Shown here piece by piece: positions 13,265-46,255 of a stretch of 64,000 bases of DNA. Position 1 is the stretch's first letter; each line of letters opens with the position of its first letter. Where the stretch lies: positions 1-64,000 of IMG/VR virus record IMGVR_UViG_3300017917_000616. One strand, given 5' to 3'. Below the pieces are notes generated by a model. The model saw nothing but the letters and a program-made list of their open reading frames with translations, ran no database searches and had not been told where the DNA came from. The translations under genes and the position numbers were made by a program. This DNA comes from a virus.

Positions 13265-13657
13265 ATGGCACATTTTGCTGAATTAGATAAAAACAATTTT
13301 GTTATTAGAGTTATTGTTGTTCACGACAATGAATTACTAGACGAAAATGGTATCGAGCAAGAACAAAAAGGAATAGATTTTTGTAAGAGCCTGCTCGGTG
13401 GAAATTGGGTTCAGACGAGCTATAATGGTTCATTTAGAAAGCACTATGCAGGTACAGGATTTTATTACAGCAAAGAATATGATTGTTTCTTCCCACCAAA
13501 ACCATTAGAATACCCATCGTGGGTACTAGACGTTGCTGAGGCTATATGGAAACCACCTATACCAGAACCAAACGACGGTAAAGTATATAGGTGGGATGAG
13601 CCTACTAAATCCTGGTTTAAAATAGGCGACGGTCAAATAACAATAGATATAACTTAA
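13265..13657 (+). CDS. Conserved partner of Gly-rich proteins (MAHFAELD type)
   Basis: MAHFAEL..N.VIRVIVV, WVQTSYN..FRKHYAG.G, PSWVL...W.PP.P.P, Y.WDE. Confidence 0.8.
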   Translation: MAHFAELDKNNFVIRVIVVHDNELLDENGIEQEQKGIDFCKSLLGGNWVQTSYNGSFRKHYAGTGFYYSKEYDCFFPPKPLEYPSWVLDVAEAIWKPPIPEPNDGKVYRWDEPTKSWFKIGDGQITIDIT

Positions 13658-14229
13658 CTGTATTCGTAGGGTGTGTCTGGGTGACTGTAATCAACTTTGA
13701 TATGGTCACCTTTAACATCATCGTATTCTTGATAATATGATTCGTTGGGCATCAATACTCGAAAACTTTCTCCGTACTTTAGTGTAGCAAAAGTTAACTC
13801 AGCTTTATCCAATAAATCACAAATAACGAATCCAGTAGCACATCGTCCTAAGATGTTTTTAAAAGGACTATGCTTAAGTTCATTCTTTTGTAATGCTTTG
13901 TGAATATCACTGTGAGGTCTGAACATAATTCGTGTAATGCCTAACTTTTGATTACGTAAGCGAATCTTGTCAAATATTGTGAGTTGAGTTAGATTAGCGT
14001 TGTTATCTTCATCAATGGTTAATAGAACCTCTTTGACTTTGATACTGCCTTTGGTATGTGAATTATCGGGTGTCTCTTTTGTTGACCATGGAATGTTACA
14101 TTCCACATGATTCACATAATACGTTTCTCCATGAAATTTTAAGACCCACATGGGAACGGTCTCGTCTTCTAAATGCTTTTTGTTGAAATGAAAGACTACA
14201 TCCCTACAAGCAAATTCAATCTATGCCAT
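13654..14229 (-). CDS. Hypothetical protein (191 codons) with an in-frame TAG at codon 3 (amber read-through candidate)
   Basis: AAGGA SD, then ATG(14229) GCA TAG ATT GAA TTT GCT TGT..., reading MA*IEFACRDVVFHFNKKHLEDETVP in frame with the tracked MWVLKFHG ORF. Confidence 0.7.
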
Positions 14230-14230
14230 T

Positions 14231-14635
14231 TTATTTTCCTTTCTTGGTTAGATTCTTTAAATTATTTAGTAGTGTTTGACTACGACTAACTTCTTTCTTT
14301 TTCTTTTGGTGCGTCTGATGGGATTCGAACCCATTACCATGAGTTTTAGAGGCTCTTGCTTTCCTATCAGCTACAGACGCATCAGGATCAACTAACTCAG
14401 TCAATCCTTTAAACTTATCATAAGTGTCAATTATAATTGATTTATAAGTATCTTCAATCTTAATGGGTAAGTCTAGATGAATAGTTAGACGAGGACCCTG
14501 TTCCTCATTAATCATACCGTCACCATATATAGTACCTATAAAAGGTATCTTGTTATACTTACCGAATACACGTGTACCAAACTCAAAATATGGTTTAGGA
14601 CGATTTTTCTCAAAATATTCTGCTAGACTTGCCAT
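14231..14635 (-). CDS. Hypothetical protein whose 3' part runs through a tRNA gene
   Basis: 134-aa ORF; the residues ASVADRK...HQ are encoded by the tRNA sequence. Confidence 0.7.
   Translation of the reverse strand: MASLAEYFEKNRPKPYFEFGTRVFGKYNKIPFIGTIYGDGMINEEQGPRLTIHLDLPIKIEDTYKSIIIDTYDKFKGLTELVDPDASVADRKARASKTHGNGFESHQTHQKKKKEVSRSQTLLNNLKNLTKKGK
14307..14380 (-). tRNA. tRNA with CUA anticodon (amber suppressor type), encoded CCA
   Basis: GCGTCTG-TA-GCT-GATAGGAA-AGC-A-AGAGC-CTCTAAA-ACTCA-TGGTA-ATGGG-TTCGAAT-CCCAT-CAGACGC-ACCA. Perfect 7-bp acceptor and 5-bp T stems; U33-CUA-A37; anticodon stem has two mismatches. Confidence 0.8.
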
Positions 14636-14636
14636 T

Positions 14637-15155
14637 TTAATTTGCCAATACTTTACTTACACTATTCATAACACTAGCGATACGACCGATATCACGCAAT
14701 TGTTCTACCGTATATCCCATCTTCTTTAGACCTTCGTAATGCGCCTTTACACAAAAATGACACTTACCGACAATACTTGCGGCTAGTGAGTAAGCCTCAA
14801 AACGTTCTTTGGTTGTGCCACCATGTGTGCTAATAGCATTCATACGTAGTTGTGCTGGCAATCCTTTTAGGTTTTCATCATCTGCCATTTCAACAAATGG
14901 ATACCATACGTTGTTTTGTGCCATTAGACTTGCCGCTGTCAATGCCGCATCTGCTTCTACACGGTTACTTAATTGACTATGTACCCAAGTCCATAGTTTG
15001 CTATTGCCTGTAGCAAATGCCGCTGCCAATGCTACTGCTTCTGCTTCTTCTACTGGTAGTGTACTACGCTTAATTACTGCGTCAATATTTAATTTTGTAT
15101 CCTTTGCGTAATCAGGAATACTTTGTTCTTTTAACGCATCCACCCATTGTGTCAT
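14637..15155 (-). CDS. ahpD: Alkyl hydroperoxide reductase AhpD
   Basis: IPDYAKDTKLN, AASLMAQNNVWY, LRMN and CHFCVKAH motifs. Confidence 0.92.
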   Translation of the reverse strand: MTQWVDALKEQSIPDYAKDTKLNIDAVIKRSTLPVEEAEAVALAAAFATGNSKLWTWVHSQLSNRVEADAALTAASLMAQNNVWYPFVEMADDENLKGLPAQLRMNAISTHGGTTKERFEAYSLAASIVGKCHFCVKAHYEGLKKMGYTVEQLRDIGRIASVMNSVSKVLAN

Positions 15156-15165
15156 ATTTTTCTCC

Positions 15166-15744
15166 TTAATTATGATTTAAAAATGCTTCTTTCACGAAAG
15201 GTTCGTTTAACATCATTTGAATCGCAACAATAACTAGTACTCCTGCTCCTACCCAAATAGTTTTGGGCCAGCGCAACATAATTCTAGATACTAACGTACT
15301 TCCAAACAAGATTATTGGAACACTAACTAGTAATCCAAAGATGATTAACCACCAATTGCCTCCGGCTGCTCCCGCAATAGCAAGTGCGTTATCAAGTCCC
15401 ATTACAGCGTCGGCCCAAATGATTGTACCCATCGCACCCCAGAATGTTGTGGATGCTTTTACATCACCATGACCTTCACCATTGTCTGTCACTAACTTAT
15501 AAGCGATATACAACAATGCGATACCACCTATTAGTCGCAATCCAGGAATCATCAACAGATAAGTTAGTGCTGCCACACTTAAAAATCTAACAGCAACTGC
15601 TCCGAATGTTCCCCAGATCATTGCCTTACGGCGTAGTTCAGGTGGTAGCTTATTAGCAGCCATCGCAATGACCAATGCGTTTTCACCACCAAGAACAACA
15701 TCAATTAAGATAATGGCACCTAGTGCCCAAATTAATTCTAACAT
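15166..15744 (-). CDS. TerC/YjbE-family integral membrane protein
   Basis: IDVVLGGENALVIAMA..LP..LR, ADAVMGLDNALAIAGAA, GLLVSVPII. Confidence 0.88.
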   Translation of the reverse strand: MLELIWALGAIILIDVVLGGENALVIAMAANKLPPELRRKAMIWGTFGAVAVRFLSVAALTYLLMIPGLRLIGGIALLYIAYKLVTDNGEGHGDVKASTTFWGAMGTIIWADAVMGLDNALAIAGAAGGNWWLIIFGLLVSVPIILFGSTLVSRIMLRWPKTIWVGAGVLVIVAIQMMLNEPFVKEAFLNHN

Positions 15745-15809
15745 TATTTTCCTTTACATGTAGGGCAATGTTCTCTTTTTAGATACTCAAATAAATCTCG
15801 AAAGTTCAT
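15744..15809 (-). CDS. 21-aa CxxC peptide MNFRDLFEYLKREHCPTCKGK
   Basis: GGAG SD, fills the intergenic gap exactly, TAATG overlap with the TerC start. Confidence 0.5.
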   Translation of the reverse strand: MNFRDLFEYLKREHCPTCKGK

Positions 15810-15810
15810 A

Positions 15811-16431
15811 TTAATATCTCCCTGATGCCAATACAATTTGGCAAATATGTTCTAGTCGTTCGATATGTTCAAACGCTCTCCATGGACTTGTATCAATTGC
15901 TACAACTCCATGCCCCTTAATGCCTACAATATCATAACTAATATTACCATAGTCATCTAGTTCTAAGTTCTTATGACATTGGTCAGCTAGTTCTTGACTA
16001 ATTGGAGGCACATCTCCTACATTAGGTGCTACCTTTGTATAACGACTGAGTTCAGGAAAATCTTTCGCAAGATTACCTAACTCAATACCACGGTGCATGG
16101 CAGCAACACAATACGTCGGATGTAGGTGAACTACAACCCTAACATCGTGACTATGTTGGCCCATTGCTCTCTGAAGACCAAAGTGTAATGGTATCTCGCC
16201 ACTAGGTTTTAAGTTAGCACTAATATCAGTATAGAACTCCTCTTGCCAGAGCAATCCATGAATACTAATTTTCTTGAATTGATCTGGCTGTAGAGTTTGT
16301 TTGCGAACACCGCTAGGGGTGATATAGAAGTGATCCCTATCGTGATGACGAATACTAACATTGCCATCACGACTGGTAATCCAGTTTCTTCTATATGCTT
16401 CTACTAATGTATCGCAAATAGTTTCTAGCAT
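15811..16431 (-). CDS. Class II aldolase/adducin family protein
   Basis: GNVSIR, ITPSG, KPSGE..LH, HLHP and GHG motifs. Confidence 0.9.
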   Translation of the reverse strand: MLETICDTLVEAYRRNWITSRDGNVSIRHHDRDHFYITPSGVRKQTLQPDQFKKISIHGLLWQEEFYTDISANLKPSGEIPLHFGLQRAMGQHSHDVRVVVHLHPTYCVAAMHRGIELGNLAKDFPELSRYTKVAPNVGDVPPISQELADQCHKNLELDDYGNISYDIVGIKGHGVVAIDTSPWRAFEHIERLEHICQIVLASGRY

Positions 16432-16976
16432 TATAGAGTCTCACCACCGATAGGACGGCTGCATGGGCATAGTTCGCCAGTTTGTAGTGCATCTAGGATG
16501 CGTAGAGTTTCGTCTGGGTTACGACCAACGTCCAAGTTGTTTACTGTAACGTGCTGGATGACGTTATCAGGGTCAACGATGAATGTAGCACGAAGTGCCG
16601 CACCTGCAGGACCGTAGAAGATGCCAAGCTGATCTGCTAGACTGTTCTCGTCACGTGCCACATCCGCAAATGACCAAGAGTTTGTTTCTCTCAAATCTGC
16701 ATGTGCATTGCGCCATGCTAGTTTACAGAACTCGTTGTCAGTAGAACCTATCAATAGAACTGCGTCACGGTCAGCAAAATCGCCGTTGAGCTTGTCATAA
16801 GCAACAATCTCAGTAGGACATACGAAAGTGAAGTCCTTAGGATAGTAAACAATAACTTTCCACTTTCCTTCGAAACTTTTGTCAGTAATAGTTTCAAATG
16901 CGCCTTCTGGTGTAAGTGCGCCGGGCTTAACGCCAGTAACTGCAAAACTTGTGATTTTATCGCCGATTGTTTTCAT
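16431..16976 (-). CDS. ahpC: Peroxiredoxin AhpC
   Basis: YPKDFTFVCPTE, LRATFIVDP, GRNPDETLR, GELCP. Confidence 0.95.
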   Translation of the reverse strand: MKTIGDKITSFAVTGVKPGALTPEGAFETITDKSFEGKWKVIVYYPKDFTFVCPTEIVAYDKLNGDFADRDAVLLIGSTDNEFCKLAWRNAHADLRETNSWSFADVARDENSLADQLGIFYGPAGAALRATFIVDPDNVIQHVTVNNLDVGRNPDETLRILDALQTGELCPCSRPIGGETL

Positions 16977-20158: not shown

Positions 20159-21041
20159 TCTTTTTACTCATCAAGTCTTGTACATTTTTCATGTGACGGT
20201 CGATAGCTAAGGCAGAAATGTCTTTGGGGTAAACTAAATTATTTTGTTTATAAAATTCAATAATCTCTTTACTTGATAGCAAGTCACTAAAAAGTTTTTG
20301 ATATCTTTGTTGTATATCTAACGGAGTAGATTTTTTCATAAAAAACCCAGTAGCTATCAAATCAATATCAGTTTTGATTGACAATTCTTTGGGTATAGGA
20401 ATGTTGGCTGTATTATTGTGCGTGGCTGCTATACCATTTAGCAAAGATCCTTGAATCTGTGTTATAGCAGTAACTGACGTTAGGTTAGCAACATCTATTG
20501 AATCTGACATTAGAGCACCAAGTGTTGGCGTATCGCCAGGGAAGGGTACTATAGTTATATTTGGAATATGCTGTAGTGACCTTTCAACAATAAACTTTTG
20601 GCTGATACTAGAAACACCCATTGTAACATGTCTTTTTTTAGTTTCTGCTAAGAATTGATCCCATGTTGTAATCTTAGATTTTTTACTAGTTACAAAAATA
20701 GTATGTATATCTGAAACATACATCATAGGAGATAAGTTTTTGTATAATTCTAAATTGGATTCGTTTTCGCTAAGTTTCAGAGCCAATGTGGTTCCAGCTA
20801 ATAACAAATGGTTACCTGTGTTGTCGTTTAAAAATTCTCTAAGGGCTATTAAACCATCTGCTCCGGGTTTATTTACTACAACAATATTAACGTTTAGTTT
20901 CTCTATCGCCTCTTTTTGAATTCTTCTAGCTAGTGTATCTGATAATCCACCGGGTGGCTGCTGTATGTACAATTTAATTGGTTCATTGGCATGACACAGA
21001 ATAGTAAATGCGAATAATAATAAAGTCAGTAATTTTTTCAT
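20136..21041 (-). CDS. Bug/TctC tripartite tricarboxylate transporter substrate-binding protein A
   Basis: Signal peptide MKKLLTLLL, PPGGLSDTLARR, VVNKPGADG, VPFPG. Start at the second ATG (21041). Confidence 0.82.
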   Translation of the reverse strand: MKKLLTLLLFAFTILCHANEPIKLYIQQPPGGLSDTLARRIQKEAIEKLNVNIVVVNKPGADGLIALREFLNDNTGNHLLLAGTTLALKLSENESNLELYKNLSPMMYVSDIHTIFVTSKKSKITTWDQFLAETKKRHVTMGVSSISQKFIVERSLQHIPNITIVPFPGDTPTLGALMSDSIDVANLTSVTAITQIQGSLLNGIAATHNNTANIPIPKELSIKTDIDLIATGFFMKKSTPLDIQQRYQKLFSDLLSSKEIIEFYKQNNLVYPKDISALAIDRHMKNVQDLMSKKNVNNTNR

Positions 21042-21058
21042 GAACATATTTATAATAG

Positions 21059-21081
21059 AAAAGGCACCGAAGTGCCTTTTT
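21059..21081 (-). terminator. Terminator with cUUCGg tetraloop downstream of the tmRNA
   Basis: AAAAAGGCAC-TTCG-GTGCCTTTT; A/T tracts on both sides, so potentially bidirectional. Confidence 0.85.
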
Positions 21082-21396
21082 CTGAGGTTCTGTTGCGAGG
21101 CCTGTCTTGCCCCAGGCTGCTTTAATTAAGCTGCCAATGCGTAAACTTCATCGTTTGCGTCTATAGTTTTGCTTGATTTACGGTCATCGCCTACCGTGCT
21201 GTCCACTCTGTTACTCTTTGCCCTGTCGAAACCATGACTGGCCCATCATAAAAGGACTACCATGAATACCACTGCTACGATTGCGAATCCCATCGCAAAT
21301 CTTGTTAAGTCATCCATTCTAATCTCCTTTATGGTGGACCAGGCGGGAGTCGAACCCGCGTCCAGAACACTTTTCTCTTTGCTTCATACAGCAATA
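21082..21396 (-). ncRNA. ssrA: Circularly permuted (two-piece) tmRNA; tag (A)ANDEVYALAA
   Basis: The acceptor piece with T-arm and ...CTGGTCCACCA ends at 21332, upstream of the 5' piece GGGCCAGTCATGGTTTCGAC starting at 21244. G3-U70 pair. Tag ORF 21158-21126. Outer ends are approximate. Confidence 0.92.
21246..21317 (-). CDS. 23-aa hydrophobic peptide in the tmRNA intervening segment (MDDLTRFAMGFAIVAVVFMVVLL)
   Basis: AAGGAG SD immediately after CCA, ATG 21317, TGA ending 1 nt before the tmRNA 5' G. Confidence 0.55.
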   Translation of the reverse strand: MDDLTRFAMGFAIVAVVFMVVLL

Positions 21397-21402
21397 ATTT
21401 AT

Positions 21403-21431
21403 AGTGTAGTTTATTTATTGTTATTTGTCAA
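21403..21431 (-). promoter_or_regulatory. sigma70 promoter TTGACA-N17-TACACT for the tmRNA
   Basis: -35 at 21431-21426, -10 at 21408-21403. Confidence 0.75.
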
Positions 21432-21830
21432 TCAGCGTTTGCCCATACGGAACAAATAGATTGGGATATCACGTTCTTTTCGTTTTAATGCGTCACTAAC
21501 TCTATGATGCCCATCTATAATATAGTACTTTCCATTCCTGTCATAGACTACAGGATACTTATCATATTCTGGGTAAAACGCTTCGCCACCGCCTGAGTTG
21601 TCTAACCAGTCTTGTGTAGCAAGTAATTGACTAGGTACTATATTGATGACCATGGGCTTGTAACCTGCATTGAGCATATCATCTACCTCAGTATGTAGTT
21701 CTGCTACATCCTTGAATTTACTAGGGTCAGTAAACTCAGCATCCCAATGTGATAGGTAATCACCCAATTTGATATTAGTAGGTACTCTTTGTAGACCGAA
21801 ATTTTCCGTAATTAAATCAGTGATACGCAT
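21432..21830 (-). CDS. ParB/sulfiredoxin-like domain protein
   Basis: L.ATQ, PVV....G.YYIIDGHHR..A. Start taken at MRITDLITE. Confidence 0.78.
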   Translation of the reverse strand: MRITDLITENFGLQRVPTNIKLGDYLSHWDAEFTDPSKFKDVAELHTEVDDMLNAGYKPMVINIVPSQLLATQDWLDNSGGGEAFYPEYDKYPVVYDRNGKYYIIDGHHRVSDALKRKERDIPIYLFRMGKR

Positions 21831-45049: not shown

Positions 45050-46255
45050 TTACTTAGCGATTACAACTGCTTCTATAATGCCTTCGCCATCAGAATCTTT
45101 ATGTTCTAGCGCACGACCAATTACATTGAATGGGGTCAATTCTTCTTTTAATCCAGCACGTGCTTTGCCGCCGCCGGCGCTTACTAGTCTTTGACCTTTC
45201 TTTACTTGTCCAACTACTAAAACTTTTACACGACCTGCTAAAGCAACTGGTGGGTGAGTTACGTCATCGCCTGCGCCGCTGTTCATTAGATAAGCAGCAG
45301 TTTTGCTAATTACTCCAAATACTTCATCACTTAATTCTTCTTTAACCGCAGTGATTTCTTTTTCTCCGCCAATCTCTACTACTGTACCAACAGGATACTC
45401 AGCATCAGCTTCGTAACGTTCTGCCAAGTCAGCGTATGTAGCTTGAATTCTTGCTCCGCTAGCCAATGTCCAAACGTTAGCAATAGTTCCGCCGCCACCA
45501 ATATAGTTTGTGATTAGATTGCCTGGATACAAGTTGCCACTAAAACCACCATTGCCAGCAGTAGTGCTCATAAATGACTGTACATTAGCGTTAGAATAAG
45601 CACCTACGATAGAGTTAGCTAAACTGTTACCGTTAGCCCAGTAATAATTATTAGACTTGAAACCAACGTTAGCATAGATATTTCCACCTGTAACGATTAG
45701 GGCATTTCCTGAAACGGCACCGTTCACGGTCCAAGCACCAGTCATTGTACCAGCATTACCTACTGCTCCTGTAGTAATAAGGGTTGTACGGGTAGTTGTT
45801 AAATTAGCAGAAGCGATACTAGCATTTCCAGCTGTCACAGTATTGGCTGCTGTCAATGTCTGACATGTAATATCCATAAAGTCGCCAGCGTTTGTGACGC
45901 TAATATTATTACCTGTAATATTTCCAGTTACTTGTAGATTACCTAGAACAGCATTTCCTGCGCTAGTTACACTAGATAAGGTAATCCAGTTACTAGCATT
46001 AGCTTCACCGTCTGTTGGGCAAATACTCAATGTTTGAGTATTTGTATTATACCACAATTGTCCCCTGATAGGGTTAGAAGGGATGCTATCATTTGCGAAA
46101 TTCTCTAGCATTCTAACCATGTTAGTATCTAGAGTTTGTCCGTAACCTGCGTAATTTCGTCCGGGTAATCCTAGACTTGTGCTAGTTGTATTGATCGTGC
46201 CGTCTTGTATTGTTGTCAAAACATTGCCGTCACTTCTGATGATTGTATATGCCAT
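45050..46255 (-). CDS. Tail fibre-like protein with C-terminal intramolecular-chaperone (peptidase G2-like) domain
   Basis: L.G.NY.GYG....N....LENFA, GQLWY, ADLAERYEAD..Y..GTVV.IGG..EIT, VAL.GRV, IGRALE. Confidence 0.75.
   Translation of the reverse strand: MAYTIIRSDGNVLTTIQDGTINTTSTSLGLPGRNYAGYGQTLDTNMVRMLENFANDSIPSNPIRGQLWYNTNTQTLSICPTDGEANASNWITLSSVTSAGNAVLGNLQVTGNITGNNISVTNAGDFMDITCQTLTAANTVTAGNASIASANLTTTRTTLITTGAVGNAGTMTGAWTVNGAVSGNALIVTGGNIYANVGFKSNNYYWANGNSLANSIVGAYSNANVQSFMSTTAGNGGFSGNLYPGNLITNYIGGGGTIANVWTLASGARIQATYADLAERYEADAEYPVGTVVEIGGEKEITAVKEELSDEVFGVISKTAAYLMNSGAGDDVTHPPVALAGRVKVLVVGQVKKGQRLVSAGGGKARAGLKEELTPFNVIGRALEHKDSDGEGIIEAVVIAK

What the first reader, a model, noticed from the sequence alone, without database searches (positions are those of the whole stretch)
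13654..14380. Amber-gated gene with its own cis-linked CUA suppressor tRNA
Seen: a cloverleaf with U33-C34-U35-A36-A37 and an encoded CCA (14380-14307) ends 77 nt upstream of a gene that begins SD(AAGGA)-ATG-GCA-TAG. After the TAG come 23 protein-like codons (IEFACRDVVFHFNKKHLEDETVP) in frame with the 165-aa tracked ORF. It is the only in-frame TAG I found in the window, and it sits on the same transcript as the tRNA that could read it. Established: CUA tRNAs suppress amber stops, and amber suppressors are often charged with Gln or Lys via U35; CAG and AAG are each one substitution from TAG. Inference: this is a local translational switch rather than genome-wide recoding. The full 191-aa protein would appear only after the suppressor is cut out, matured and charged, giving a delay or dose gate at the end of the AhpC/AhpD operon. 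It could also be an early step toward TAG reassignment. Caveat: the anticodon stem has only 3 Watson-Crick pairs (A27.A43 and C31.A39 mismatches), so suppression may be weak or decaying.
Basis: partly seen in the sequence, partly recalled or inferred. Interest (0 to 1): 0.93.

Follow-up and report, generated by a model that had tools for sequence, protein, structure and literature searches.

The report
Amber-gated phage gene with own tRNA
A huge freshwater phage that otherwise uses the normal genetic code keeps one UAG stop as the third codon of one conserved gene, next to its own UAG-reading tRNA; more than 100 diverged relatives keep the same pairing, so it looks like a natural one-codon translational switch that I could not find described in the literature.

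Summary
The tRNA(CUA) at 14380-14307 is real: Rfam 59.5 bits, and 18 of 21 stem pairs covary across 59 family members. SD-ATG-GCA-TAG-ATT at 14241-14218 opens a 191-codon frame. With the third codon left free, all 80 matches in IMG/VR read TAG. Of 133 distinct homologues, 123 keep a TAG 6-13 codons before the invariant FHFNK motif, never TAA or TGA. The 23 codons after the TAG vary mainly at third positions, so they are translated. A CUA tRNA lies upstream on the same strand in most loci, and 5-8.5 kb away in 4 of 5 apparent exceptions. A complete 364-kb relative has one CUA tRNA, set apart from its 28-tRNA array, and only this one convincing gate of this form. TAG still ends 3-6% of genes, so this is local recoding, not code 15. 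In two cultured rhizobiophages a neighbouring PTH2-like gene is gated by TAG where the phage has tRNA(CUA) (Phosso) and by TGA where it has tRNA(UCA) (Atu_ph07). The anticodon-stem mismatches are family traits, not decay. The protein's function is unknown: its N-terminal beta domain has no structural match. Nothing here is experimental. This scan found the same family earlier on other DNA.

The parts
14307..14380 (-). tRNA with anticodon CUA (reads UAG). Class I, G1-C72/C2-G71/G3-C70, A73, encoded CCA, loop CUCUAAA, with A27.A43 and C31.A39 mismatches.
   Evidence: ARAGORN; Rfam RF00005 at 59.5 bits; own family model R1 at 79.5 bits, against 65 bits or less for any non-suppressor tRNA; covariation in 18 of 21 pairs.
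14430..14457 (-). Sigma-70-like promoter candidate (TTGAAG-16-TATAAT), about 50 nt before the tRNA. No terminator-like site lies between the tRNA and the gene.
   Evidence: Consensus scan only. Co-transcription of the tRNA and the gene is inferred, not shown.
14237..14241 (-). Shine-Dalgarno AAGGA, 7 nt before the ATG of the leader.
   Evidence: Sequence. Relatives have AAGGA/GGAGA at the same distance from their leader ATG.
14221..14229 (-). Leader ATG-GCA followed by the gate codon TAG (14223-14221). The next base is A.
   Evidence: TAG in 80 of 80 free-codon matches. Leader length is 2-9 codons and its sequence is not conserved. ATT, ATC or ATA follows the TAG in 58 of 58 clade members.
13975..14220 (-). 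N-terminal all-beta domain (82 residues, invariant FHFNK..H, PMW, TKET, TKGS motifs). The family also occurs alone (about 85-110 aa) and as a C-terminal fusion in rhizobiophages.
   Evidence: Alignments A1 and A4; profile search found 142 representatives in three architectures; AF2 pLDDT 97; best structural match Z 3.3.
13654..13974 (-). C-terminal domain with a ferredoxin-like (ACT/RRM-like) fold and an acidic tail, ending in stop TAA at 13656-13654.
   Evidence: AF2 pLDDT 85; VIA-align Z about 5 to ACT/RRM-type domains, a generic fold.
14231..14635 (-). Upstream 134-codon ORF whose frame runs through the tRNA and stops 1 nt before the leader ATG. Its conserved core is residues 1-83.
   Evidence: Weak Pfam Glyoxalase_8 hit. 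The same read-through of the tRNA occurs in 6 further lineages.
21035..21444 (-). Two-piece (permuted) tmRNA gene. It recurs within a few kb of the tRNA(CUA)/gated-gene pair in many relatives.
   Evidence: In phage XacN1, two CUA tRNAs lie within about 1 kb of its tmRNA gene.

Best explanation
This is programmed, gene-specific amber suppression.

Ribosomes start at the SD-ATG and translate one codon (2-9 codons in relatives) before meeting UAG. Without a charged suppressor, release factor 1 ends translation after a di- to nonapeptide and no protein is made. Once the phage's own tRNA(CUA) has been transcribed, cut out, modified and charged by a host synthetase, it competes with RF1 at UAG-A and lets the ribosome continue into the 188 conserved codons. 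In this window the tRNA probably comes from the same promoter as the gene.

The gate sits in an unconserved N-terminal leader, at the position where TAG-less homologues have their start Met. Any inserted amino acid should therefore be tolerated, and little is wasted when the gate is closed.

Shown by comparison: the gate is TAG-specific and conserved, the codons behind it are translated, the tRNA is a selected and linked family, and the rest of the genome uses TAG as a stop.

Inferred: that the tRNA is expressed and charged, which amino acid it carries (Lys or Gln is likeliest by E. coli precedent), how efficient the read-through is, and what the gate is for (a timer, a dose control or a lock).

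The gated protein has no known function. It stays next to the CUA tRNA even where it has lost its TAG, it lies near the phage tmRNA, and in rhizobiophages it neighbours a gated peptidyl-tRNA-hydrolase-like gene. These links point to a role in tRNA, translation termination or ribosome rescue.
For: 1. TAG specificity. All 80 IMG/VR matches with a free third codon read TAG. Of 133 distinct homologues, 123 have TAG 6-13 codons before FHFNK and none has a TAA or TGA gate. Yet TAA and TGA end about 94-97% of genes in these genomes.
2. Translation behind the TAG. Heterozygosity at codon positions 1, 2 and 3 is 0.089, 0.051 and 0.362. There are 11832 synonymous against 4084 non-synonymous pairwise differences, and the other two frames contain stops. 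Residues 2-12 form the first core strand in the AF2 model, at pLDDT 98.
3. Linkage. A CUA tRNA lies upstream on the same strand within 4 kb in most of the 80 loci, as close as 27 nt, and 122 of 151 gated loci in the second set hold one. Four of five apparent exceptions have it 5-8.5 kb away. In a complete 364-kb relative the CUA tRNA sits alone about 100 kb from the 28-tRNA array and 4.8 kb from the gene.
4. The tRNA is functional by comparative criteria: 92.7% of cells are paired, against 33-43% when the partners are slid, and 18 of 21 pairs show compensatory changes.
5. Gate codon and anticodon change together in cultured relatives. The PTH2-like gene of Phosso starts M-K-Y-TAG and the phage has tRNA(CUA). 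The orthologue in Atu_ph07 starts M-I-G-E-H-F-TGA, and that phage has no CUA tRNA but a related tRNA(UCA).
6. The cultured Rhizobium phage RHph_I1_18 has the short form of this protein. It is unannotated, starts M-S-E-F-M-TAG-AAC, and has a tRNA(CUA) 30 nt downstream.
7. The base after the gate TAG is A in 58 of 58 clade members, against 10 of 55 genuine TAG stops. By established knowledge, a purine after UAG favours suppression.
Against: Nothing is experimental: there is no evidence that the tRNA is made, charged or active.

Ten of 12 TAG-less homologues still have the CUA tRNA close by. The tRNA therefore does not exist only to open this gate.

One 93%-complete relative with a gated gene showed no CUA-family tRNA.

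TAG still ends 3-6% of genes, so strong suppression would extend some phage and many host proteins.

The tRNA's amino-acid identity could not be assigned. The nearest ordinary tRNA differs from genome to genome: Lys, Arg, Met or Phe.

In this clade the codon after the TAG is always Ile (AUU, AUC or AUA), a possible weak start codon, and TAG-less relatives start exactly at the TAG position. Both facts also fit re-initiation.
Confidence: 0.78

Rival explanations
1. Termination and re-initiation. ATG-NNN-TAG is a tiny upstream ORF. The ribosome terminates at UAG and restarts at the adjacent AUU, so the protein begins at Ile1. The tRNA(CUA) is unrelated or serves other targets.
For: In this clade the codon after TAG is always ATT, ATC or ATA; AUU is a known weak start codon (established knowledge, infC). 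TAG-less homologues have their ATG exactly at the TAG position. They nevertheless keep the tRNA.
Against: A re-initiation device has no reason to use only TAG, yet there are 130 distinct gates with no TAA or TGA, although those two codons end about 95% of genes. In other lineages the codon after TAG is AAC, AAA, CAT or GTN, mostly not start codons, including cultured RHph_I1_18 with TAG-AAC. The SD is spaced for the upstream ATG, not for the AUU. The gate codon matches the suppressor anticodon in Phosso and Atu_ph07.
Confidence: 0.08
2. The TAG is a true stop and the real protein starts downstream, at the GTG of Val9 or at the internal ATG (MWVLKF...). This is how gene callers annotate it on long contigs.
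For: On long contigs, database proteins begin at MFHFNK/VFHFNK or MWVLKF.
Against: The 8-23 codons upstream of those starts are conserved as protein, with third-position variation. They form the first strand of a confidently folded domain. They are present in TAG-less and fused homologues. No comparable SD precedes the internal starts.
Confidence: 0.03
3. This is a transitional state of genome-wide TAG reassignment (towards code 15). The tRNA was acquired for general suppression, and this gene is merely the first place where an in-frame TAG became fixed.
For: TAG stops are depleted: 0 of 55 long ORFs in this contig, 2.8% in a complete relative and 5-6% in the clade. This matches the path proposed for recoded phages (bioRxiv 10.1101/2021.08.26.457843). 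Occasional extra gates exist, on homing-endonuclease genes and on PTH2-like genes.
Against: The single gate is stable at one position across a clade diverged to about 65% protein identity, and also in a T4-like rhizobiophage. This looks like a maintained design rather than a passing stage. A complete genome shows no other convincing in-frame TAG.
Confidence: 0.06

Closest known systems
Stop-codon-recoded phages with phage-encoded suppressor tRNAs (TAG read as Gln, 'code 15'; crAss-like, Lak and others; bioRxiv 10.1101/2021.08.26.457843, PMC9523058)
   Same: A phage-encoded tRNA(CUA) in a standard-code host. In-frame TAG is proposed to make expression depend on the suppressor. TAG stops are depleted.
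   Different: There, tens to hundreds of TAGs are spread through late and lysis genes. Here there is one TAG, at a fixed site 2-9 codons after the start of one gene family. TAG is still a working stop elsewhere, and the tRNA is physically linked to its target.
Orphan CUA suppressor tRNAs of standard-code phages (XacN1 PMC5852040; RsoM2USA PMC8504454; Summit PMC9022506)
   Same: The XacN1 suppressors belong to the same tRNA family: 74-75 bits on my family model, the same GAGCC-UCUAAAA-CUC anticodon arm, and a position next to a tmRNA gene.
   Different: The XacN1 and Summit papers state that no target gene could be identified, and the RsoM2USA paper names none. Here a target is identified. XacN1 itself has no homologue of this protein and its PTH2 gene is not gated, so its target remains open.
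Pyrrolysine decoding (pylT next to methylamine methyltransferase genes that carry one in-frame UAG)
   Same: A dedicated tRNA(CUA) is encoded near genes that carry a single conserved in-frame UAG, while UAG is otherwise rare.
   Different: ARAGORN's 'tRNA-Pyl' label rests on the anticodon only. This tRNA has an ordinary D-loop with GG and a 5-nt variable loop. The UAG lies in an unconserved leader, not at a catalytic residue. I did not search for pylS or pylBCD.
prfB (RF2) autoregulation through an early in-frame UGA
   Same: An early in-frame stop makes synthesis depend on the balance between release-factor activity and an alternative decoding event.
   Different: prfB needs a +1 frameshift and its product is the factor that reads the stop. 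Here the frame is unchanged, the alternative is a dedicated tRNA, and the product's function is unknown.
Lambda bar-type minigenes (SD-AUG-one or two codons-stop; established knowledge, not re-read here)
   Same: When the gate is closed, the leader is formally a two-codon minigene with a strong SD.
   Different: bar minigenes are not followed in frame by a conserved protein and are not paired with a suppressor tRNA.

Membership tests
Amber suppressor tRNA | Cloverleaf tRNA with anticodon CUA, U33 and a purine at position 37 | tested here: met
   ARAGORN and Rfam at 59.5 bits. The loop reads C32-U33-C34-U35-A36-A37-A38.
Amber suppressor tRNA | Structure maintained by selection (compensatory changes in the stems) | tested here: met
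   Across 59 family members 92.7% of cells are paired and 18 of 21 pairs change on both sides. Slid controls give 33-43% paired.
Amber suppressor tRNA | Is aminoacylated and reads UAG on the ribosome | not testable with these tools
Programmed stop-codon read-through gene | An in-frame stop conserved among homologues, with protein-level selection downstream of it | tested here: met
   TAG in 80 of 80 and 123 of 133 homologues; third-position bias in the 23 codons behind it.
Programmed stop-codon read-through gene | A product spanning the stop is observed | not testable with these tools
   This needs mass spectrometry or ribosome profiling.
Genome-wide TAG recoding (code 15) | Many genes carry in-frame TAG, and coding density is low under code 11 | tested here: not met
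   No TAG-joined long frames in the contig or in a complete relative. ORFs cover 97% of the contig under code 11.
Genome-wide TAG recoding (code 15) | TAG is no longer used as a terminator | tested here: not met
   TAG ends 36 of 683, 7 of 252 and 55 of 919 long ORFs in relatives. It ends 0 of 55 in this contig, which is not clearly below the clade rate.
Pyrrolysine system | The pylT-type tRNA shape (6-bp anticodon stem, 3-nt variable loop, small D-loop without GG) | tested here: not met
   The structure shows a 5-position anticodon stem with mismatches, a 5-nt variable loop and a D-loop with GG.
Pyrrolysine system | pylS and pylBCD genes present | not tested
   I did not search for them. Only 20% of this genome is in hand.
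prfB-type autoregulation | A frameshift is needed to pass the stop | tested here: not met
   The reading frame is continuous across the TAG.

The most novel reading that the evidence does not exclude
The gated protein is itself part of the suppression and termination machinery, for example an antagonist of release factor 1 or a helper of the CUA tRNA. A little read-through would then make more of the factor that promotes read-through. With the phage tmRNA clearing ribosomes that run off read-through messages, the tRNA, the gated gene and the tmRNA would form a self-locking, portable 'code-switch' cassette. The same cassette would be re-targeted to UGA in Atu_ph07-like phages.
Probability: 0.15. 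Interest if true: 0.9.

Novelty: new variant of a known kind. Interest (0 to 1): 0.74.

Why it matters
Suppressor tRNAs turn up regularly in phages that use the standard code. Published genome papers either say that no target could be found (XacN1, Summit) or name none (RsoM2USA). This finding gives a concrete, testable target class: a stop codon placed a few codons after the start of a specific conserved gene, where read-through scans of annotated gene ends do not look and where gene callers silently truncate the protein.

If the gate works as inferred, it is a minimal natural example of tRNA-operated translational control. It is one tRNA and one codon, stable across hundreds of phages, and present in cultured Rhizobium, Sinorhizobium and Agrobacterium phages, so experiments are possible.

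It also matters for annotation, because the family is systematically mis-called. And it matters for ideas on how full stop-codon reassignment begins.

Tried and rejected
- **DNA behind database proteins.** Full-length forms with Q occur only on short contigs, long contigs give truncated calls, and 80 of 80 IMG/VR matches read TAG. I therefore infer that Q comes from code-15 gene calling.
- **Function of the protein.** Pfam and PHROGs gave no family, and a PDB sequence profile search gave nothing. Foldseek found no match at E 0.001 or better for the whole model or the N-domain. VIA-align gave Z about 5 (generic ferredoxin-like) for the C-domain and at most Z 3.3 for the N-domain. The ESM Atlas returned only eukaryotic chorein-type clusters at 0.90-0.91, which I treat as chance.
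- **Amino-acid identity of the tRNA.** The nearest ordinary tRNAs differ between genomes: Lys CUU/UUU, Phe, Thr, Met and Arg. It remains unresolved.
- **Strong TAG avoidance in this contig.** 0 of 55 long ORFs end in TAG, but the clade rate is only about 5%, so this is weak evidence on its own.
- **Other gates in a complete relative.** Four further SD-ATG-short-leader-TAG hits are antisense to larger ORFs or low-complexity sequence, and I rejected them.
- **XacN1.** It has no homologue of the protein and its PTH2 gene is ungated, so this finding does not solve XacN1's own puzzle.
- **Sequencing error, pseudogene and genome-wide recoding.** All three are rejected on conservation and stop-codon usage.
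Full report
**What is in the window**

The window is the first 64 kb of a 92.6-kb IMG/VR virus record that CheckV rates about 20% complete, so it is a fragment of a jumbo phage. On the minus strand, ARAGORN and the Rfam tRNA model (59.5 bits against a gathering score of 29) agree on a 74-nt tRNA at 14380-14307. It has anticodon CUA, discriminator A73 and an encoded CCA. It is the only tRNA on the contig.

Seventy-seven bases downstream come AAGGA, 7 nt, ATG (14229-14227), GCA, TAG (14223-14221), and then 188 open codons ending in a TAA at 13656-13654.

**Is it more than chance?**

In the whole contig this is the only SD-ATG-(1-10 codons)-stop followed by at least 100 open codons, for any stop codon. 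No two long frames are joined by a TAG.

**Conservation of the gate**

The search for related loci found 252 viral contigs that encode a relative. In 79 of the 80 loci kept, the homologue aligns back to a TAG that directly precedes I-E-F/Y-A-C. A good SD and an ATG lie 2-9 codons upstream, and the leader sequence is not conserved. The 80th locus starts at a contig end.

A DNA pattern that leaves the third codon free gave 80 matches, and all 80 read TAG. A broader scan anchored on the invariant FHFNK motif gave 133 distinct sequences. Of these, 123 have TAG 6-13 codons upstream, none has a TAA or TGA gate, and about 10 have no gate. Yet TAA and TGA together end 94-97% of long ORFs in these genomes.

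Over all fetched loci, the architecture 'SD-ATG-short leader-stop-long frame' occurs 130 times with TAG on this family. Everything else gives 15-18 hits for each stop codon.

**The codons behind the TAG are translated**

Across 57 distinct sequences, the 23 codons between the TAG and the internal ATG show heterozygosity of 0.089, 0.051 and 0.362 at codon positions 1, 2 and 3. There are 11832 synonymous against 4084 non-synonymous pairwise differences, and the other two frames contain stops.

In the AlphaFold model of the N-domain (pLDDT 97), residues 2-12 after the TAG form the first long strand of the core sheet. Fused homologues in Atu_ph07 and Phosso contain the same segment inside a longer protein. 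So the internal starts chosen by gene callers (MFHFNK..., MWVLKF...) truncate the protein.

**The tRNA is a selected, linked family**

Forty-eight distinct CUA tRNAs from these loci share invariant G1-C72 and C2-G71, near-invariant G3-C70, A73-CCA and the loop YUCUAAA. Their stems differ freely.

A covariance model built from them scores every CUA tRNA at 70-90 bits and every ordinary tRNA at 65 bits or less. On a 59-member alignment, 92.7% of cells are paired, against 33-43% when the partners are slid, and 18 of 21 pairs show compensatory changes.

Pair 31-39 is unpaired in 45 of 59 members, usually as C.A or A.C. Pair 27-43 is unpaired in 18 of 59. So the 'weak' anticodon stem is a family trait, not decay. 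A 2026 NAR paper (PMC13092985) recounts that unpinning the top pair of the anticodon stem (27-43) raises read-through by CUA-anticodon tRNAs in E. coli.

The tRNA lies upstream of the gated gene on the same strand, from 27 nt to 3.7 kb away, in most of the first 80 loci. In the second set, 122 of 151 gated loci hold one. For five loci with none in reach I searched the whole contigs. Four have a CUA tRNA 5-8.5 kb away, and one 93%-complete genome shows none.

I fetched a complete 364-kb relative in full. It has 28 tRNAs in one array at 232-238 kb. Its single CUA tRNA stands alone at 339.5 kb, 4.8 kb before the gated gene at 344.3 kb.

**This is local, not genome-wide, recoding**

In that complete genome TAG ends 7 of 252 ORFs of at least 150 aa. 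No long frames are joined by TAG. The four other short-leader TAG hits are antisense or low-complexity artefacts.

In the window's contig TAG ends 0 of 55 long ORFs. With a clade rate near 5%, that is only weak evidence of extra avoidance.

**Independent support from cultured phages**

tblastn against GenBank phages found the N-domain in four records.

- **Rhizobium phage RHph_I1_18.** The stand-alone domain is unannotated. It begins SD-ATG-AGT-GAG-TTC-ATG-TAG-AAC and is followed 30 nt later by an annotated 'tRNA-Pyl(cta)'. AAC is not a start codon, which argues against re-initiation.
- **Phosso and Atu_ph07.** The domain is fused behind a coiled-coil region and has no stop. But two genes upstream lies a PTH2-like gene (Pfam PF01981). 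In Phosso, which has a CUA tRNA of this family (70 bits), that gene starts M-K-Y-TAG-V-E-E. In Atu_ph07, which has no CUA tRNA but a related tRNA(UCA) with the same C31.A39 arm (63.8 bits), the orthologue starts M-I-G-E-H-F-TGA-I-N-Y.

The gate codon and the suppressor anticodon change together. This is the best comparative evidence here that these early stops are read by the phage tRNAs.

**TAG-less homologues**

About ten homologues lack the gate and have their ATG exactly where the others have TAG. Two things follow. First, the inserted residue is unconstrained, so homologues cannot reveal the amino acid. Second, the gate looks like a short prefix added to an ordinary start.

Ten of the 12 TAG-less loci still have a CUA tRNA 76-1900 nt upstream on the same strand. 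In one of them (L205) a nearby PTH2-like gene carries the gate instead (M-K-TAG-I-D-G). In another (L219) a TAG lies at the boundary between the two domains. So the tRNA and this protein family are associated beyond the decoding dependency, and the set of gated genes varies between lineages.

**Mechanism I commit to**

I read this as gene-specific amber suppression by the phage tRNA, as set out under Best explanation, with confidence 0.78. Co-transcription in this window is plausible: a TTGAAG-16-TATAAT site ends about 50 nt before the tRNA, and no terminator-like site follows it. That is only a consensus match.

The A after the gate TAG is present in 58 of 58 clade members, against 10 of 55 genuine TAG stops. 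This fits the known preference of suppression for a 3' purine, although the Ile codon may be kept for the protein's sake.

The likeliest charging is Lys or Gln, by E. coli precedent for CUA tRNAs with U35, and A73 favours Lys. This rests on my own knowledge. The comparisons here did not settle it.

**Function of the protein**

The function is unknown. There is no Pfam or PHROG family. A profile search of 1.84 billion representatives found only 142 relatives, in three architectures: N-domain plus C-domain, N-domain alone, and N-domain as a C-terminal fusion.

The C-domain is ferredoxin-like (Z about 5, a generic fold). The confidently modelled N-domain has no structural neighbour above Z 3.3.

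Context points towards tRNA, termination or ribosome rescue. The evidence is the CUA tRNA, a tmRNA gene within a few kb in many loci, a gated PTH2-like gene nearby in rhizobiophages, and a metallophosphatase next door in some lineages. AhpC, AhpD-like and aldolase genes recur in 33-34 of 79 loci, but usually downstream of the gene, so the operon link seen in this window is not fixed.

**Comparison with the literature**

Recoded phages with suppressor tRNAs are well described, and a regulatory role for recoding has been proposed (bioRxiv 10.1101/2021.08.26.457843). For standard-code phages with CUA tRNAs, the XacN1 and Summit papers state that no target was identified, and the RsoM2USA paper names no target (PMC5852040, PMC9022506, PMC8504454).

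Four full-text searches found no description of a conserved single early amber codon paired with a linked tRNA. Absence from this library does not prove that it is unpublished.

**Earlier notes of this scan**

The scan's notebook shows that the same protein family with the same gate was reported on other genomes (for example e1-5370690, e1-5689721, e1-5730137, e1-5770884). It also records PTH2-like gated genes elsewhere (e1-933198, e1-5953590, e1-5654171).

I reached the main results before reading these notes, and I re-tested the points I took from them. They are not independent evidence.

Noticed in passing
window 14231-14635 (-): The 134-codon ORF upstream runs in frame straight through the tRNA and stops 1 nt before the leader ATG. 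Its conserved core is residues 1-83. In 6 further lineages with different tRNA sequences the homologous ORF also stays open through the tRNA. Cutting out the tRNA would leave this message without a stop codon.
   Followed up: partly
L304 (Sinorhizobium phage Phosso, about 176.49 kb) and L308 (Agrobacterium phage Atu_ph07, about 198.9 kb): Orthologous PTH2-like genes are gated by TAG at codon 4 in Phosso, which has tRNA-CUA, and by TGA at codon 7 in Atu_ph07, which has tRNA-UCA and no CUA tRNA. Both are annotated from an internal start.
   Followed up: yes
L196:5607, L208:5417, L211 (minus strand, about 8182): Homing-endonuclease-like genes start with the same gate. Two GIY-YIG-like genes begin M-x-TAG-I-E-Y, copying the first codons of the gated gene. 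One HNH gene begins M-A-TAG. Mobile genes seem to have captured the gated start.
   Followed up: no
L090, L098, L106, L113, L157: A 195-aa gene ends in TAG and is followed at once, in the same frame, by the ATG of a 456-aa tail-fibre-like gene. Its C-terminal domain resembles window 45107-45442. With an active suppressor this would give a fusion protein. The arrangement is conserved in 5 distinct loci.
   Followed up: partly
L219 (minus strand): This homologue has an ordinary ATG start but an in-frame TAG at the boundary between the N- and C-domains. There the gate would choose between a one-domain and a two-domain product.
   Followed up: no
window 21035-21444 (-); L038, L039, L050, L063, L077, L170: A two-piece tmRNA gene is often directly next to the CUA tRNA or the gated gene. 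In L038 the tmRNA ends 1 nt before the tRNA. In XacN1, two CUA tRNAs lie about 1 kb before the tmRNA.
   Followed up: partly
protein database hits P0004-P0123: On short contigs the family is stored full-length with Q at the gate position, probably from code-15 gene calling. On long contigs it is stored truncated. This looks like a systematic annotation artefact.
   Followed up: partly
window 14338-14350 (anticodon arm); alignment A6: The C31.A39 (or A.C) mismatch next to the anticodon loop is kept in 45 of 59 suppressor tRNAs. These include XacN1's CUA tRNAs, and the same arm occurs in Atu_ph07's UCA tRNA. In effect the tRNA has a 9-nt loop or a protonated C.A pair.
   Followed up: partly
window 14637-16976 (-); L012, L028, L010: AhpC-like, AhpD-like (CMD) and class II aldolase genes recur near the tRNA/gated-gene pair in 33-34 of 79 related loci, in varying order.
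   Followed up: partly
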